Below are positions 19,684 to 25,631 of a stretch of DNA of 64,000 nucleotides, in pieces; the stretch's first letter is position 1, and each line of letters begins with the position of its first letter. Source of the DNA: a virus (Duplodnaviria > Caudoviricetes). Under the pieces are notes generated by a model. It was not told the DNA's origin and searched no databases. It saw only the letters and a list, made by a program, of their open reading frames with translations. Position numbers and translations under genes: made by a program. The stretch lies in the IMG/VR virus record IMGVR_UViG_3300030104_006170. One strand, given 5' to 3'.

Positions 19684-20589
19684 CTATATTAAATTTAAGT
19701 GTGGTAAAATAGACAGTTCTTTTGCTTTGGACTCCACCATAATATCTACATTATTACCGTATGTACTTGGTAAGTTATTTATGTAGTCTGAGTGTGCTTG
19801 GGGTTTTAATTTTTGATTACTTTCATGTAAAGCTTTAGACTCTGAATAATGTACTACTGGGGTTATTCCCTTAGGCCATGTAGAAATGGCTAACTCAAGA
19901 GCTTCTTGTTCTGTCATGTCACCAGTACAAAACTTATGGTGGTGATAATCAAATACAATAGGGATACCAATACGTTCATGTATATACATTAAATCTTTTA
20001 CGGAATACATTGTTGCCTTATCATCATTCTCAACTGTAAGACGTGTCTGAACTGATTCAGGGAGTAACTCAAAGTTTTTACAGAATCTATCTAGAGCAGA
20101 TTGTTTATCCCCATATACACCATTACAATGTATATTGATTTTATTGTATGGTGTTCTATCTAGACCCAGTAAATCAAATACCTTACCGTGGTTGGTTAGG
20201 TCTGTTATTGTATTTTGTACCACATGTTCTCGGGGTGAAACCAGGACATTGAATGGTCCTGGGTGTGAAGTTAATCTAACACGATTATCTCTCGCGTAAT
20301 TACCACAACTAGAAAGAACAGTCTTGATTCTTTGATATTGGGGTAGGTCTTCTATATTGTACTCAGAAGCCCAAGGAAAAATATCTGACGAGATTCTAAA
20401 AAAATTAATCCCGTTCTCCACATTCCATTTTACTATCTCACATAAATCTCTAGAATTAAGTAGGGAAAGTTCCCCAGCATAGTCTATACCCTTATCTATA
20501 AAGGTTTTTTTAATCATAGACCTATTAGTGGTAATCTTGGGCTTCTGTCCCCCAAGTGTCATATTTATACAAGCATATCCTAAGTTCAT
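19684..20589 (-). CDS. uvsE: UV damage endonuclease
   Basis: LGYACIN, FFRISSDIFPW, RLTSHPG, INIHCNG, RLTVENDD, IPIVFDYHHH, HYSES, AHSDY, DIMVESKAKE. Confidence 0.95.
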   Translation of the reverse strand: MNLGYACINMTLGGQKPKITTNRSMIKKTFIDKGIDYAGELSLLNSRDLCEIVKWNVENGINFFRISSDIFPWASEYNIEDLPQYQRIKTVLSSCGNYARDNRVRLTSHPGPFNVLVSPREHVVQNTITDLTNHGKVFDLLGLDRTPYNKINIHCNGVYGDKQSALDRFCKNFELLPESVQTRLTVENDDKATMYSVKDLMYIHERIGIPIVFDYHHHKFCTGDMTEQEALELAISTWPKGITPVVHYSESKALHESNQKLKPQAHSDYINNLPSTYGNNVDIMVESKAKELSILPHLNLI

Positions 20590-20657: not shown

Positions 20658-21449
20658 TTATCTAGTAATATATAATTTTTGATTTCTAATGTATAGTTTA
20701 CCTACTGGAATTTCAGTTAATTCTCTACCTAGTAAGTCATAAATTTTACCATCATTAATTCTATTAAATGTTAGTTCATTTATTGAAGTTGGTGTCATAT
20801 TAAGTAATACCCATGAAAAACTATTTTGGTCAAATACTAACCACTCTTCTACACTACATACTTCTACTGAACCGTTCTCATAAATATATATATCATAACC
20901 AACTTTTACTGTGTCTGATGTTGTGATTTGTGGAAAATAATCATACAGACCTGAACCTGTATAACAAGTACCACCTCCTGTATATCCAGTACACACACCC
21001 CAATATACTGTCATAGAGTCAGGATTATGAACCATACCTGATGTGTCAAGTCCTATATTAAATCCTTGACTTTGGTCTATCCAATATGTTATTGAGTCAC
21101 AGCAAAAATATGGTTGTTGCATACTCATCTTTAACCACATATTTGCATCCCATATCCAATTTACACAACATGTAGTAGTCGCTCCCATACCATAAGTAAT
21201 ACAAGTTGTCAGTGTATCATAGTTAAATTGGAAGTTATAGACCATATGATATGTACTCATACTATCTTCTTGGAATATCACTCCGTCATTTGATGTTGTT
21301 ACCCAATAATCAATAAAGGTGTTGACTCCAACAACCTCAAAAATAGGTTGATTCTGGGGTCCATTAACAATCATTGAATCACAATAATTTATTTGTGCTT
21401 GTGTTTGTAGTCCAAACATAACTAATAGTGCTAATAAAATTCTTTTCAT
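20658..21449 (-). CDS. Secreted Cys-rich protein with a short T9SS type A-like C-terminal domain
   Basis: Sec signal ending AQ; two related Cys-containing repeats; C-terminal PTSINE..KIYDLLGRE..KLYI. Confidence 0.7.
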   Translation of the reverse strand: MKRILLALLVMFGLQTQAQINYCDSMIVNGPQNQPIFEVVGVNTFIDYWVTTSNDGVIFQEDSMSTYHMVYNFQFNYDTLTTCITYGMGATTTCCVNWIWDANMWLKMSMQQPYFCCDSITYWIDQSQGFNIGLDTSGMVHNPDSMTVYWGVCTGYTGGGTCYTGSGLYDYFPQITTSDTVKVGYDIYIYENGSVEVCSVEEWLVFDQNSFSWVLLNMTPTSINELTFNRINDGKIYDLLGRELTEIPVGKLYIRNQKLYITR

Positions 21450-21516
21450 TTTTTAATTTTTAATTTAATTATTATTTCATATAATAAATACGAAATATAA
21501 ACTTAATTGTCTAGTA

Positions 21517-22047
21517 CTATCTTACTAGTGTAACGTGACCTGTGTAATGTTGGTTGTGTGTCCTAATTGAGTATGTGTAGACCCCTACCTGACAATTCTT
21601 TCCATCCCATGGAATGTTATCGGTTGTTTGATATATAATTTCACCCCATCTATTGTATATAACCATTAGCTCTATATCGTCTTTATCAGCACCGTGAACA
21701 TAAAATGTTTCATTGTAATCGTCCTGGTTTGGTGTGAATGAGTTAGGTACAAATATTTGTAAGTATGGACAATCTTCTACTATTACCTCATGATAAGAAG
21801 TGTCACCATCACATCCAAATCTAGTTGTATAAACAGATATGATATATGTACCTACTGAATCTGGCCACTGTACAGTAATAGAATTATTATTATTGTATAG
21901 TATTTCTCCACCTATTATATCCCAATAATATACCTTATCCGCATCATAACTTACTTGATAATTTTGTGGTGTTATTCCCTCACAATTAGTGTAAGTTTCT
22001 TGAGCAAATAATTGAAGTGGTAGTAGTATATATACTAACCATCTCAT
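21517..22047 (-). CDS. PKD-like plus T9SS type B (gliding motility-associated/CHU_C) C-terminal domain protein
   Basis: Signal ending FAQ; IFVPNSFTPNQDDYNETF..IYNRWGEIIY..WDG..GVYTY..GHVTLVR. Confidence 0.9.
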   Translation of the reverse strand: MRWLVYILLPLQLFAQETYTNCEGITPQNYQVSYDADKVYYWDIIGGEILYNNNNSITVQWPDSVGTYIISVYTTRFGCDGDTSYHEVIVEDCPYLQIFVPNSFTPNQDDYNETFYVHGADKDDIELMVIYNRWGEIIYQTTDNIPWDGKNCQVGVYTYSIRTHNQHYTGHVTLVR

Positions 22048-22048
22048 A

Positions 22049-22588
22049 TTAGTAATGTTGAATTGGTCCTGTAACTGGTCCGTTATTAACTACCACATTT
22101 ATTGTTGTATTACAACCAGCCATAGAATAAGTTAATACGTAATTCCCCACCCCTGTTGATGGTTGGAATGAATTTGCTACTACACCTGTTCCAGACCAAG
22201 TACCTCCTGCAGGTGTTCCTACTAATGGAGTTGTGGGGTCTCCTGGACAGAATGGTCCAATTGCATTCCCATTTAAATCTAGTACAAATACATCTAATAA
22301 TACGGGTGTTCCAGGACAGTTGGCTGCATTGGTTTCAATAACTTCAACAGCGTTTGTAAAAAGTCCACTAACACCTCCCCAATCTACTGTGATTGAATTG
22401 GTTCCTTGTCCTGTTTGTAAAACACCACCACCACCTGTGATAGTCCAGTTATAAGTTGATGTAGGGGTATTAGTAACAAAATACTGTTCACCTACTGCGT
22501 TTGCACATACTGTGTCTGGGTTGATTGTTGTTTGACCGTAAGTCGTTAATCCTATGAGGATTAATAAAACTGTTAAAATTCTTTTCAT
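22049..22588 (-). CDS. Secreted PKD/Ig-like protein ending in PVTGPIQHY
   Basis: Signal ending YGQ; STYNWTITGGG..GQGTNSITVDW; PAGGTWSGTGV. Confidence 0.75.
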   Translation of the reverse strand: MKRILTVLLILIGLTTYGQTTINPDTVCANAVGEQYFVTNTPTSTYNWTITGGGGVLQTGQGTNSITVDWGGVSGLFTNAVEVIETNAANCPGTPVLLDVFVLDLNGNAIGPFCPGDPTTPLVGTPAGGTWSGTGVVANSFQPSTGVGNYVLTYSMAGCNTTINVVVNNGPVTGPIQHY

Positions 22589-22599
22589 AATTTATTTTT

Positions 22600-23160
22600 T
22601 TAATAATGATTTATGTTCGATGTAATGGGTATCACTACTTGAACGGTTCCGTTGTATATTTGATATGCTGGGTCGTTACAACAATTTCCGTTAGCCCAAC
22701 CTCCTGTTGTACAATCATCGAAAACCTCTATACTAATACTTAAATCTTCGTTTGTACATGTTTGTCCAACTGTTATTTGAAAACTGGTGATAAATGGACC
22801 GTTAGAACTGGTTCCCCATCCTGCTGTACCTGCATTTTCAAATCTCCATCCTGGTCCAAAGTTAAACCCTCCGGGGTATGTATGTTGTAAATCCCACAAC
22901 CAATTACCTGTTGAGCCTAATGGATTACCTGGAGCTTGTGTTGGTGTTAGGTTCACCCACCCAATTCCTAGATTGATTTGGATGGCATGTATCCAGTTTA
23001 TATTTATCCCGGTAAAATCTTGTAGTGTATACCACACTGTCACAGTTTGTCCTGGAGAATAAGGACCAGCTGGAGATATAACATGTGACTGATTAATTAC
23101 ACATTGTGAATAGGATGTAAACGACAACACCATTAGTAATATTGTTAATAACTTTCTCAT
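22600..23160 (-). CDS. Secreted beta-rich protein ending in PITSNINHY
   Basis: Signal ending YSQ; resembles N-terminal domains of flavobacterial surface proteins; TATTTAT upstream. Confidence 0.7.
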   Translation of the reverse strand: MRKLLTILLMVLSFTSYSQCVINQSHVISPAGPYSPGQTVTVWYTLQDFTGININWIHAIQINLGIGWVNLTPTQAPGNPLGSTGNWLWDLQHTYPGGFNFGPGWRFENAGTAGWGTSSNGPFITSFQITVGQTCTNEDLSISIEVFDDCTTGGWANGNCCNDPAYQIYNGTVQVVIPITSNINHY

Positions 23161-23438: not shown

Positions 23439-24872
23439 TTAGACCGTAATAGATTCGTATCGAGCGGACCCAATAGTCTCCATCATCATATTATAAGGAG
23501 TAAGTTCCTCACAGCTTAAAATACTTTTCATGATTGAGGGTGAGAACCCTGATACTAATGCTGTTCCCATCTCGTCGAAACGAGTTGGTACATTGTCTTG
23601 TCTACTTTGGATATTCCAGTAAACAATTCCTGGCATTTCGTAACCAGCTTCCTCATACATCCCTTTAATCATTTCTTGTGCAGTTGGATTCCAATCTGAT
23701 ATATCATACATTCTACTACCAATTGCTTCATCAAACTCCATATCCGAAAGGACAAGAACTTTGGTTGGCATCTGTGATAGTGGAACATTATGTTTTACTG
23801 CTTGGTCCAAGATTAACTCAAACGTTGCTTTTAAATCAGTATTCATTCCCCAATCTGCTCTCTCCAGTTGGTCTAACCTATCGGCTAACGAACCTTCAAG
23901 TAATTGTAGTTGTGGTCTCGAAGAGAAGGTTATGAATGCGTTTTTAAATACACCTTCGTTTCTCTCTGAGATATACAGACCCAATGATGTTGACACATCC
24001 ATACAAGTAACTTTACCGTTATTTCCTGCTGATGTAGTCATTGAACCTGAGGTATCAACTACAGGTAACACTCTTTCACTAATTCCTTCCATGTAATTTG
24101 GAAGAGACTCCCATTGTGCTTGTGCAACATCCTTTTCTCCACCATATTTAATGGATTTAGTAATGTCATAAGGGTATATAGCTCCAGAGTTGATAGTAGT
24201 TTTACCATCAACTAAAGCTCTTTTGTACTCCTCATACCTCTCCTCGTCATTCTTCATGAAAGTTTTCTGATACCTTGACGATGCTAGGGACGGAAGTTTC
24301 GAATACTCGATACTTGACCAGTCCTTTGCACACATCTTGGTTTCAACCACATTTGTAAGTCCTACTAATAACTTACGATATTGTTTGGGTGACAATTTTA
24401 AATACCTACGAATAATATTCGCTTTTGGTCCTTTTCTTGGCATCCACTTTGCACATAACCCATCTTGTTTGTCTAACGCAGTTTTAATTATGTGTAAAGC
24501 AGATTCCCAACAATTCATTGTACCCACTAATGTTAATACATCATCCCATCTACCATATTCACTAATTAAGTGAATGTTTTTATGTAGTACTTCTCTGTGG
24601 TTTTCACATAACCATAATAAACAATCTCTGAAGATTTGTCTCTCACCAGCTCCACCACGGACATCACGTGTCCAAAAAATAATTTTAATTGTTGTGAGAG
24701 GGTCTTCATTAAACGCTTTAGAGACTTTGGCGAGTAGTCTCTTCTTATCCATACCTCGCATTGCTCCGATTTGGAAAAAAAGATTGACACAGTGATTTAA
24801 AGAGGATGAGTTTGTACTCATACCATTTTCTGTCATTGTGTCTTTTGTTTGTAAAGCGTCGATTAGATTCAT
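23439..24872 (-). CDS. DUF2828-type TROVE/Ro60-like protein with a vWA domain
   Basis: TENG, RDVRGGAGER..FR, YGRWDD, AKWMPR, YRK, MIDAS VDTSGSM, TFS, NTD, LSDMEFD, YWN, LVSGFS. Confidence 0.85.
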   Translation of the reverse strand: MNLIDALQTKDTMTENGMSTNSSSLNHCVNLFFQIGAMRGMDKKRLLAKVSKAFNEDPLTTIKIIFWTRDVRGGAGERQIFRDCLLWLCENHREVLHKNIHLISEYGRWDDVLTLVGTMNCWESALHIIKTALDKQDGLCAKWMPRKGPKANIIRRYLKLSPKQYRKLLVGLTNVVETKMCAKDWSSIEYSKLPSLASSRYQKTFMKNDEERYEEYKRALVDGKTTINSGAIYPYDITKSIKYGGEKDVAQAQWESLPNYMEGISERVLPVVDTSGSMTTSAGNNGKVTCMDVSTSLGLYISERNEGVFKNAFITFSSRPQLQLLEGSLADRLDQLERADWGMNTDLKATFELILDQAVKHNVPLSQMPTKVLVLSDMEFDEAIGSRMYDISDWNPTAQEMIKGMYEEAGYEMPGIVYWNIQSRQDNVPTRFDEMGTALVSGFSPSIMKSILSCEELTPYNMMMETIGSARYESITV

Positions 24873-24904: not shown

Positions 24905-24933
24905 ATTATATATTAATTTTTTTTGTCTGTCAA
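24905..24933 (-). promoter_or_regulatory. Perfect sigma70-consensus promoter for the Ro-like gene
   Basis: Minus strand TTGACA (24933-24928), N17, TATAAT (24910-24905). Confidence 0.85.
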
Positions 24934-24953: not shown

Positions 24954-25190
24954 CTACTCTTCTGTACTTGTTGTTTCTGTAGGTTTAGTAAAATATCTTT
25001 CTAGTGTCTCTAACCTTTCATCTGCTGAAGCTAGTAATCTAATTGCTTCGTTACAATTATCCCAATAATCTTTAGTTGAGTGGTCACCTATCCCTGCTGG
25101 GTGATTAGTTAATAAATGTAAACTAGCTAATGCTTTGTTTTTATCTGCTTCAGCCTGTGATTTTAAAAAGGTGTATACTTGTAAATTCAT
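24954..25190 (-). CDS. Hypothetical protein (HPAGIGDH motif)
   Basis: ORF track. Confidence 0.65.
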   Translation of the reverse strand: MNLQVYTFLKSQAEADKNKALASLHLLTNHPAGIGDHSTKDYWDNCNEAIRLLASADERLETLERYFTKPTETTSTEE

Positions 25191-25205: not shown

Positions 25206-25493
25206 TTAATTATTTTTATTATTTATTTTCTGTTTAGCTTCCCACCTTTCTTTTCTTGATGGTTTAGCGTCTTTTAATTTTTTAGTTTTAGAAGGTGTAG
25301 CTGCTTCATTTAGTTTTCTACCAAATTTTATTAGGTGTGTTAATCTTTTAATTTCTTTTTTTGATTCACCATTAATAGGTAACCTATCTAATTTTTGTTG
25401 GGGTGTTAAACTATTATAATACTCTTGTCTAAGTTCCGCAGCTTTTCTTCTTGTACTTCTACTGGTTTGTCCGTGTTTTCTTACTTTTGCCAT
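25206..25493 (-). CDS. Highly basic protein, probably nucleic-acid binding
   Basis: K/R-rich 95 aa; starts 18 nt after the tRNA-like element. Confidence 0.65.
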   Translation of the reverse strand: MAKVRKHGQTSRSTRRKAAELRQEYYNSLTPQQKLDRLPINGESKKEIKRLTHLIKFGRKLNEAATPSKTKKLKDAKPSRKERWEAKQKINNKNN

Positions 25494-25511
25494 AATTATT
25501 TTAAATTTTAG

Positions 25512-25581
25512 AGCGGGTGGGTGAAACGAATCACCATCTACCTACTGGAATGTATGCCGCTTTTCATTAAGCTACACCCGC
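25512..25581 (-). tRNA. Non-canonical tRNA-Gly(TCC)-like element, no encoded CCA
   Basis: Acceptor GCGGGTG/CACCCGC plus U73; D stem GCTT/AAGC with a 6-nt loop lacking GG; anticodon arm GCATA/TAGGT with an 8-nt loop CATTCCAG; T arm GGTGA/TCACC with a 6-nt TTCGTT loop. Confidence 0.7.
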
Positions 25582-25602
25582 ATGTGTCTTTAACTCAGTA
25601 TA

Positions 25603-25631
25603 AGTATATAATAAATTTTGTGTTTAGACAA
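25603..25631 (-). promoter_or_regulatory. Sigma70-like promoter for the tRNA-like element
   Basis: Minus strand TTGTCT-N17-TATACT. Confidence 0.7.

What the first reader, a model, noticed from the sequence alone, without database searches (positions are those of the whole stretch)
25206..25631. Aberrant tRNA-Gly-like RNA with an 8-nt anticodon loop, co-transcribed with a basic protein
Gly acceptor identity elements (G1-C72, C2-G71, G3-C70, U73) and all stems are kept, but the D loop lacks GG, the T loop is 6 nt, the anticodon loop is 8 nt (CAUUCCAG) and CCA is not encoded. Intact stems argue against random decay. Options are a Y-RNA-like tRNA mimic for the Ro-like protein 0.6 kb away, a decoy for anticodon nucleases, a quadruplet/frameshift tRNA, or a Gly donor for non-ribosomal use.
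Basis: partly seen in the sequence, partly recalled or inferred. Interest (0 to 1): 0.65.

Follow-up and report, generated by a model that had tools for sequence, protein, structure and literature searches.

The report
Phage tRNA-Gly with eight-base anticodon loop
A group of large marine phages keeps a glycine tRNA gene with one extra base in its anticodon loop; the gene is real and under selection, its role is unproven, and no phage tRNA of this kind turned up in the papers searched.

Summary
Window 25512-25581 (- strand) encodes a 70-nt cloverleaf. It has the full glycine identity set (G1-C72, C2-G71, G3-C70, U73, C35, C36). The D loop is 6 nt without GG, the T loop is 6 nt, the anticodon loop is 8 nt (CAUUCCAG), and no CCA is encoded.

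It is neither an assembly error nor a decaying pseudogene. About 100 viral and marine metagenome contigs carry 43 distinct versions, and 42 keep the same 8-nt loop. The acceptor stem never varies, two stem pairs co-vary, and the D and T loops drift. No relative in this group has a 7-nt loop.

In a 297-kb relative (93% complete) it is the only tRNA-type gene besides a tmRNA. Other relatives add only tRNA-Arg(UCU).

The neighbouring DUF2828 protein does have a Ro60 fold. However, the RNA lacks a Ro-binding module, and in some genomes it lies far from both the Ro-like gene and the basic-protein gene.

Best reading (about 40%): a chargeable replacement tRNA-Gly(UCC) whose altered anticodon arm resembles the SufJ frameshift suppressor. 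Rivals are a non-translating mimic or decoy, a frameshift inducer, and a relic.

First-stage readers of this scan flagged the same RNA in three other genomes.

The parts
25603..25631 (-). Promoter-like site (TTGTCT-17-TATACT), 22 nt upstream of the RNA 5' end
   Evidence: The same block is conserved in relatives with this arrangement. In G002 the RNA has TTG-N20-TATATTTG instead.
25512..25581 (-). tRNA-Gly(UCC)-derived RNA, 70 nt including U73, no CCA encoded
   Evidence: Own covariance model R1 scores 92.9 bits.
25545..25552 (-). 8-nt anticodon loop CAUUCCAG. UCC lies at 25549-25547, and the extra A is 5' of the U33 equivalent.
   Evidence: Identical in 42 of 43 distinct family sequences.
25206..25493 (-). 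95-aa Lys/Arg-rich helical protein of unknown function (basic95). Its start codon is 18 nt after the RNA.
   Evidence: It lies directly downstream of the RNA in 54 of 67 metagenome loci, and behind a tmRNA in G002 and L315.
24954..25190 (-). 78-aa protein, phrog_1811, unknown function
   Evidence: Present in only part of the relatives.
24905..24933 (-). Perfect TTGACA-17-TATAAT site in front of the Ro-like gene
   Evidence: A TTGACA block is also seen before the gene in L004, L005 and L007.
23439..24872 (-). DUF2828/DUF7788 protein with a Ro60 fold (helical repeat ring plus vWA domain)
   Evidence: Pfam and PHROG matches. AF2 model has pLDDT 80. Foldseek top hits are Ro60 of Thermus phage phiLo, Deinococcus Rsr, and Xenopus and human Ro60, E 9e-9 to 8e-6.

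Best explanation
This is a working gene for a glycine tRNA that the phage lineage has remodelled.

Inferred steps: it is transcribed from its own promoter (or behind tRNA-Arg(UCU)), cut out by RNase P and a 3' nuclease, given CCA by the host enzyme, and charged by host GlyRS. GlyRS needs only the acceptor pairs, U73, C35 and C36, all of which are invariant here. It then reads GGA/GGG in the normal frame. The structurally equivalent SufJ anticodon arm does this in the ribosomal A site.

Its proposed purpose is to replace host tRNA-Gly(UCC) when that tRNA is depleted or cleaved during infection. On this view the extra base, the mismatched 29-41 position and the odd elbow make it a poor substrate for whatever attacks the host tRNA.

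Shown: existence, conservation, structure, identity elements, genomic company.

Inferred: processing, charging, decoding, and the reason for the 8-nt loop.
For: - Every known glycine identity element is present and invariant, and UCC is flanked by U and A as in a normal loop.
- The 5' half is identical to 82 distinct cellular tRNA-Gly(UCC) genes and to canonical phage tRNA-Gly genes.
- It sits 15 nt behind a canonical tRNA-Arg(UCU) in some relatives. tRNA-Arg(UCU) is the only other tRNA found nearby, in 10 of 31 longer metagenome loci.
- It has its own promoter in some contexts and a hairpin-plus-T-run terminator in others.
- In G002 (297 kb, 93% complete) it is the only RF00005 hit. The same phages also carry a tmRNA, so they invest in translation rescue.
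- The loop is invariant while the D and T loops drift. D and T loop sizes change together, and one sub-lineage keeps GG and A58, which suggests an L-shape is maintained.
- The single loop variant changes only the wobble base (ACC), so it stays inside the glycine codon box.
- GGA+GGG make up 41-45% of phage Gly codons.
- Literature: SufJ, with one extra base 5' of the anticodon, binds cognate codons in frame with normal affinity (PMC4238358). Single phage tRNAs rescue cells from isoacceptor-specific nucleases: Tyr, Lys and Thr (PMC12445682, PMC10264068).
Against: - The elbow is non-canonical in most members, whereas the neighbouring tRNA-Arg is fully canonical.
- Position 29-41 is mismatched in most members.
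- GGT, not GGA, is the main Gly codon.
- No nuclease that targets tRNA-Gly(UCC) turned up in the papers I read.
- 8-nt loops of the SufJ type cause +1 frameshifts, which would be costly at the many GGR codons.
- There are no expression, CCA-addition or charging data.
Confidence: 0.4

Rival explanations
1. It is a tRNA mimic that does not translate. It could be a decoy or sponge for an enzyme that recognises the acceptor stem and anticodon arm of tRNA-Gly (a defence nuclease, a toxin acting on Gly-tRNA, or GlyRS itself). Alternatively it could be the RNA partner of the small basic protein.
For: Selection is concentrated on the acceptor stem and anticodon loop, while the elbow, which the ribosome needs, is free to vary. 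Sister forms have almost lost the T arm but keep the acceptor and UCC (L060, L061). The basic protein gene sits directly behind this RNA in 54 of 67 loci, and otherwise behind a tmRNA, another tRNA-shaped RNA.
Against: A decoy should copy the 7-nt loop of the real target, and this RNA does not. The basic protein has no recognisable RNA-binding fold. It is unlinked from the RNA in G002, and it follows a plain ORF in L317. Co-location with tRNA-Arg(UCU) fits a translation role better.
Confidence: 0.25
2. It is a Y-RNA-like partner of the Ro60-fold protein. In this role it would tether or gate that protein, as YrlA does in bacteria and Yrl1/2 do in Thermus phage phiLo.
For: The RNA lies 0.64 kb upstream of a gene with a confirmed Ro60 fold. 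A Ro-like gene lies downstream in 15 of 22 metagenome loci with enough sequence, and only 155 nt downstream in L082. Y RNAs with tRNA-like domains sit next to Ro60 genes in bacteria and phages (PMC4201824, PMC12135203).
Against: - There is no 5'/3' Ro-binding stem with a bulge and no GNCGAAN0-1G or CGAA motif.
- The acceptor stem is open rather than capped.
- The D and T arms, which are the conserved part of YrlA, are the least conserved part here.
- No Rfam Y-RNA hit.
- The Ro-like gene has its own perfect promoter.
- In G002 the two genes are 200 kb apart.
- Phages with 60%-identical Ro-like proteins carry about 30 ordinary tRNAs far from that gene and lack this RNA.
Confidence: 0.12
3. It is a natural SufJ-type frameshift inducer. 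It would be charged with glycine, read GGA/GGG, and then promote a +1 shift, either at a programmed site in a phage gene or broadly.
For: The loop architecture matches SufJ: one extra base 5' of U33, with the terminal C able to pair across the loop (PMC4238358). A weakened 29-41 pair lies where the P site grips the anticodon stem (inference from that paper).
Against: A scan of the window and of G002 for upstream/downstream ORF pairs in the +1 relation found only ordinary start codons at the junctions. GGA is followed by A more often than by any other base, so GGA-A is not avoided. General frameshifting would damage the phage's own proteins.
Confidence: 0.08
4. It is a relic: a former tRNA-Gly gene that is drifting and kept only by linkage or as a processing signal for the downstream mRNA.
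For: The D and T loops vary, the anticodon stem has a mismatch, and standard tRNA finders fail on it.
Against: 42 of 43 distinct sequences have the same 8-nt loop, and the acceptor is invariant. These hold across at least four genomic contexts with different promoters and terminators, while the flanking intergenic DNA cannot be aligned. Two stem pairs co-vary.
Confidence: 0.05

Closest known systems
tRNA-SufJ of Salmonella (frameshift suppressor derived from tRNA-Thr; PMC4238358)
   Same: One extra nucleotide on the 5' side of the anticodon gives an 8-nt loop. U33, the anticodon and A37 are kept, and the first loop base can pair across the loop.
   Different: SufJ is a laboratory suppressor mutation in an otherwise canonical tRNA. 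This RNA is a naturally conserved gene with altered D and T loops and a mismatched stem position. No frameshifting has been shown for it.
Phage-encoded 'rescue' tRNAs that resist tRNA-targeting defence nucleases (PMC10264068, PMC12445682, PMC11464382)
   Same: A phage carries one or a few tRNAs of specific isoacceptors whose anticodon arm differs from the host's.
   Different: In the passages of those papers that I read, I saw no change of anticodon loop size. No nuclease that targets tRNA-Gly(UCC) turned up in the papers read.
Bacterial and phage Y RNAs (YrlA, Yrn1, phiLo Yrl1/2; PMC4201824, PMC12135203)
   Same: A tRNA-derived small RNA encoded just upstream of a gene for a Ro60-fold protein. 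Yrn1 has an anticodon-like arm with a 6-nt loop.
   Different: Y RNAs have a Ro-binding 5'/3' stem with a conserved motif, and in YrlA a capped acceptor-like stem. This RNA has neither, and it keeps the full glycine identity set.
Cellular tRNA-Gly(UCC)
   Same: The first 17 nt and the 3' acceptor strand are identical in many bacteria, and the anticodon is the same.
   Different: All 82 cellular versions have loop CUUCCAA, D loop AAUGGUA or a close variant with GG, and a canonical 7-nt T loop beginning UUCG or UCCG (mostly UUCGAUU).

Membership tests
Canonical elongator tRNA (Rfam RF00005) | Cloverleaf with 7-bp acceptor, 4-bp D, 5-bp anticodon and 5-bp T stems | tested here: met
   96% of cells pair across 17 sequences, and two pairs change on both sides.
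Canonical elongator tRNA (Rfam RF00005) | Score above the Rfam gathering threshold; detection by ARAGORN | tested here: inconclusive
   36.4 bits against a threshold of 29, in the local scan only. Missed in whole-window scans. ARAGORN finds nothing in the window and calls 'tRNA-??? (tc)' in some relatives.
Canonical elongator tRNA (Rfam RF00005) | 7-nt anticodon loop | tested here: not met
   The loop is 8 nt, CAUUCCAG, in 42 of 43 distinct sequences, and 8 nt in the remaining one.
Canonical elongator tRNA (Rfam RF00005) | G18G19 in the D loop and a 7-nt T loop with U54, U55, C56 and A58 | tested here: not met
   The window has AAUGAA and UUCGUU. One sub-lineage has AAGGAUAA with UUCGAC or UUCGAA, which is nearly canonical.
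Canonical elongator tRNA (Rfam RF00005) | 3' CCA, aminoacylation, use on the ribosome | not testable with these tools
   CCA is not encoded. The trailer UCUAA is conserved.
Glycine identity set (bacterial GlyRS) | G1-C72, C2-G71, G3-C70, U73, C35, C36 | tested here: met
   All are present and invariant in the family. That these are the identity elements rests on established knowledge, not on a test here.
Y RNA / YrlA | Encoded next to the Ro60 gene | tested here: inconclusive
   True in the window and in 15 of 22 loci. In G002 the two genes are 200 kb apart.
Y RNA / YrlA | Ro-binding module: a stem formed by the 5' and 3' ends, with a bulge and GNCGAAN0-1G | tested here: not met
   The only terminal stem is a perfect 7-bp acceptor stem, and no such motif is conserved. 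Criterion taken from PMC4201824.
Y RNA / YrlA | Match to an Rfam Y-RNA model | tested here: not met
   The local scan at E up to 10 returns only tRNA.
Y RNA / YrlA | Binding to the Ro60 protein | not testable with these tools
   Needs a pull-down or gel shift.
SufJ-type frameshift suppressor tRNA | Extra nucleotide 5' of the anticodon giving an 8-nt loop | tested here: met
   Here C-A-U33-U34-C35-C36-A37-G; in SufJ C31.5-U32-U33-GGU-A37-A38 (PMC4238358).
SufJ-type frameshift suppressor tRNA | +1 frameshifting at cognate codon plus one base | tested here: inconclusive
   No gene pairs that need it, and no GGA-A avoidance. Low-level or internal events cannot be seen this way.
Phage rescue tRNA against tRNA-targeting defence | Phage-encoded tRNA of a single isoacceptor, with an anticodon arm unlike cellular versions | tested here: met
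Phage rescue tRNA against tRNA-targeting defence | Resistance to a nuclease that cleaves the host tRNA, and rescue of translation | not testable with these tools
   The host and the nuclease are unknown.

The most novel reading that the evidence does not exclude
The phage uses a naturally selected SufJ-type tRNA-Gly to change how GGA/GGG codons are read. This could be programmed +1 recoding at particular GGR-N sites. It could also be decoding by a tRNA architecture that host tRNA-directed immunity cannot recognise. Either would be a naturally conserved 8-nt anticodon loop doing a defined job in a bacterial system.
Probability: 0.1. Interest if true: 0.9.

Novelty: new variant of a known kind. 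Interest (0 to 1): 0.62.

Why it matters
To my knowledge, eight-base anticodon loops are known mainly from laboratory frameshift suppressors, engineered quadruplet decoders and a few organelle tRNAs. Here one is fixed by selection across a widespread group of uncultured marine jumbo phages. In those phages it is almost the only tRNA kept, alongside a tmRNA.

If it translates, it shows how far a bacterial ribosome and GlyRS tolerate a remodelled tRNA. It would also point to an unknown attack on tRNA-Gly(UCC). If it does not translate, it is a new class of phage tRNA mimic.

Either way, it gives a concrete, easily synthesised 70-nt RNA for testing loop-size tolerance, reading-frame maintenance and nuclease evasion.

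Tried and rejected
- **Assembly error or recent pseudogene:** rejected on conservation.
- **Canonical-loop versions within the group:** a search that left the loop free found none.
- **Y-RNA models:** no Rfam hit. In Cronobacter phage S13, the long 'tRNA-OTHER' next to the DUF2828 gene also matches only tRNA.
- **Frameshift-dependent genes:** ORF-pair scans of the window and of G002 gave only ordinary junctions.
- **Phage-encoded partners in G002/G003:** no CCA-adding enzyme (PF01743), no Fem-like transferase (PF13480), no RNA ligase (PF09414), no SmpB (PF01668). A weak Pol-beta nucleotidyltransferase lies near the RNA in G002 and is below threshold.
- **Basic protein:** nothing in Pfam, PHROGs, PDB sequences, the Atlas or by fold search.
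- **Cultured relatives:** neither the RNA nor the basic protein matches anything in the phage record collection.
- **Literature:** no paper on natural 8-nt loops in phage tRNAs.
- **Tools:** The window's own assembly is not held.

Full report
**What is there**

On the - strand, 25581->25512 encodes a 70-nt RNA: GCGGGUG UA GCUU AAUGAA AAGC G GCAUA CAUUCCAG UAGGU AGAU GGUGA UUCGUU UCACC CACCCGC U.
- RNAfold gives the cloverleaf (-24.2 kcal/mol, z -2.0). It closes the anticodon loop with the C-G pair, leaving 6 nt unpaired.
- ARAGORN finds no tRNA in the window.
- Both whole-window Rfam scans miss it.
- A local Rfam scan gives tRNA at 36.4 bits against a gathering score of 29, E 1e-5.

The glycine acceptor pairs and U73 are present. 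The D loop has no GG. The T loop is 6 nt. The anticodon loop is 8 nt. CCA is not encoded.

The surrounding genes are all on the - strand:
- a promoter-like site at 25631-25603;
- the RNA itself;
- 18 nt later, a 95-aa basic ORF (25493-25206);
- a 78-aa ORF (phrog_1811);
- a perfect TTGACA-17-TATAAT site at 24933-24905;
- a 477-aa DUF2828/DUF7788 protein (24872-23439).

The window is AT-rich phage DNA (31% GC). Its own assembly is not held.

**It is conserved, not an accident**

I ran three pattern searches with different parts of the RNA left free:
- fixing only the 5' 15 nt and the 3' acceptor strand;
- fixing the anticodon arm and T stem;
- fixing the acceptor and T-stem 3' strand, with the anticodon loop free, in metagenomes.

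All three converge on one family. It comprises 21 IMG/VR contigs and 80 marine metagenome loci, with 43 distinct sequences.
- 42 sequences keep CAUUCCAG. The exception (L286) has CAUACCAG, a change at the wobble base only.
- The acceptor stem never varies, even in the search that did not fix its 5' strand.
- Pair 53-61 switches between A-U and G-C.
- Position 29-41 is A×G in most members and G×G, A×C or A×A in a few. It is G-C, C-G, A-U or G·U in several lineages.
- The D loop has 12 forms of 5-9 nt, and the T loop has 14 forms of 6 or 8 nt.
- The longest D loops go with 8-nt T loops and the shortest with 6-nt T loops.
- One sub-lineage keeps GG in the D loop and UUCGA in the T loop.

No member has a 7-nt anticodon loop.

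By contrast, 82 distinct cellular tRNA-Gly(UCC) genes share the same first 17 nt and 3' strand. All of them have loop CUUCCAA, a D loop with GG, and a canonical 7-nt T loop.

More distant phage versions show related oddities:
- L077 has loop CUUCCAG with reduced arms.
- L061 has CAUCCAG, with A at position 33. It comes from a 210-kb phage whose DnaK is 70% identical to that of G002.
- L060 has a minimal T arm.

**Genomic company**

G002 is a 297-kb relative estimated 93% complete.
- ARAGORN finds no tRNA in it. RF00005 finds only this RNA (48 bits).
- The RNA lies at 251.7 kb, the basic-protein gene at 267 kb, and the Ro-like gene at 48.5-49.9 kb. The three are therefore not an obligate unit.

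Elsewhere the company varies.
- G003 (210 kb) also has only this RNA as a tRNA hit.
- Other relatives place a fully canonical tRNA-Arg(UCU) 15 nt upstream.
- In 31 longer metagenome loci the only other tRNA is tRNA-Arg(UCU), in 10 loci. A canonical tRNA-Gly never appears.

The RNA occurs in at least four contexts:
- with its own promoter (in G002: TTG-N20-TATATTTG);
- directly behind tRNA-Arg;
- directly behind an ORF stop and followed by a hairpin-plus-T-run terminator;
- followed by a small hydrophobic ORF.

The basic-protein gene lies directly downstream in 54 of 67 loci. A Ro-like gene lies further downstream in 15 of 22 loci with enough sequence.

One link was unexpected. G002, G003 and L315 carry a tmRNA that ARAGORN missed (RF00023 at 89.6, 123 and 111 bits). 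In G002 and L315, the genomes where the glycine RNA sits elsewhere, the basic-protein gene starts 28-31 nt after the tmRNA 3' end. In L317 it follows an ordinary ORF.

**The neighbours**

The DUF2828 protein was modelled from 18 homologues (pLDDT 80). Its best structural matches are Ro60 of Thermus phage phiLo, a TROVE domain, Deinococcus Rsr, and Xenopus and human Ro60, with E 9e-9 to 8e-6 and TM about 0.5-0.6. 'Ro-like' is therefore correct at fold level, although sequence search of the PDB finds nothing. The family is common in large phages (711 records) and often lies in or near tRNA clusters.

The basic protein has 192 homologues, all unnamed and all from marine metagenomes. It is helical and has no structural match.

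**Weighing the readings**

*Y RNA.* Published Y RNAs next to Ro60 genes, including phage ones, have a Ro-binding stem formed by the 5' and 3' ends, with a conserved motif. In YrlA the acceptor-like stem is capped and the T and D arms are conserved (PMC4201824, PMC12135203). This RNA differs on each point:
- it has a plain open acceptor stem and no such motif;
- its least conserved parts are the D and T loops;
- it has no Rfam Y-RNA hit;
- the Ro-like gene has a separate promoter;
- linkage is lost in G002.

I rate this reading at about 0.12.

*Frameshift inducer.* The loop has the same architecture as SufJ, with one extra base 5' of U33 (PMC4238358). However, ORF-pair scans of the window and of G002 show only ordinary gene junctions, and GGA-A is not avoided. 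I rate it at about 0.08.

*Relic.* An invariant loop and acceptor across contexts whose flanks are not alignable argue against this. I rate it at about 0.05.

*Translating replacement tRNA.* These points favour it:
- the complete, invariant glycine identity set;
- U and A flanking UCC;
- pairing with tRNA-Arg(UCU), which reads AGA, 62-75% of Arg codons, while GGA+GGG make up 41-45% of Gly codons;
- tRNA-gene-like promoters, spacing and terminators;
- co-change of D and T loop sizes;
- a wobble-only variant;
- the presence of a phage tmRNA;
- the structural result that a SufJ anticodon arm reads its codon in frame with normal affinity;
- the recent finding that single phage tRNAs rescue translation from isoacceptor-specific nucleases (PMC12445682, PMC10264068).

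I rate it at about 0.4.

*Non-translating mimic or decoy.* The degenerate elbow favours this, as does the basic-protein gene's habit of sitting behind tRNA-shaped RNAs. I rate it at about 0.25.

None of the functional steps is shown. All of them rest on sequence logic and analogy.

**Novelty**

No paper in the searchable library describes a naturally conserved 8-nt anticodon loop in a phage tRNA. Neither the RNA nor the basic protein matches any record in the phage collection.

I class it as a new variant of a known kind, namely phage-encoded tRNAs with altered anticodon arms.

First-stage readers of this scan noted the same RNA in three other genomes and again on this stretch. Those notes agree on anatomy and add nothing on function.

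Noticed in passing
L097:7826-8235 (G002 266,526-266,935); L310:1501-1909 (G003); L315:760-1170: Relatives of this phage encode a tmRNA (RF00023 at 89.6, 123 and 111 bits) that ARAGORN did not report in G002. In G002 and L315 the 95-aa basic protein gene starts 28-31 nt after it. No SmpB gene is found in G002 or G003.
   Followed up: partly
window 24905-24933 (-): A perfect TTGACA-17-TATAAT site lies directly upstream of the Ro-like gene, and a TTGACA block is kept in relatives. The RNA genes of relatives instead carry TTG-N19/20-TAnnTTTG-type boxes. So two promoter styles occur in one phage group.
   Followed up: no
L064:11793-11865 (-): An unrelated viral contig has an otherwise canonical tRNA (GG in the D loop, 7-nt T loop) with an 8-nt anticodon loop CUCAUUCA. 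ARAGORN reads the anticodon as 'catt'. It lies next to tRNA-Ile(UAU).
   Followed up: no
L061:5100-5170 (+), L060:804-872 (-), L077:1226-1293 (-), L078:5966-6040 (-): Other phage tRNA-Gly(UCC) genes share the same acceptor but have unusual anticodon loops: CAUCCAG and UAUCCGG (A at position 33) and CUUCCAG. Some have a strongly reduced T arm. In the 210-kb contig of L061, RF00005 finds no tRNA above threshold, and only my own model R1 detects this RNA.
   Followed up: partly
L286:9571-9643 (+): A single family member has loop CAUACCAG, anticodon ACC instead of UCC. ACC would match GGU, the commonest Gly codon of these phages.
   Followed up: no
L038-L042, L045, L049, L035/L050, L033, L051; L099 (Cronobacter phage S13): Genes for the DUF2828 Ro60-fold protein lie inside or beside tRNA clusters in several unrelated large phages. 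In S13 the gene is flanked by tRNAs, including 113- and 121-nt ones annotated tRNA-OTHER and tRNA-Ser.
   Followed up: partly
window 19684-20589 (-) and 20658-23160 (-): A UvdE-type UV endonuclease gene (Pfam E 3e-65) is followed by four tandem genes for small proteins with signal-peptide-like N termini.
   Followed up: no
L054:480-1241 (-): In G002 the RNA is followed by a 37-aa hydrophobic ORF and then a 253-aa protein with a weak Pol-beta-type nucleotidyltransferase match (PF01909, E 8e-4, below the cut-off).
   Followed up: no
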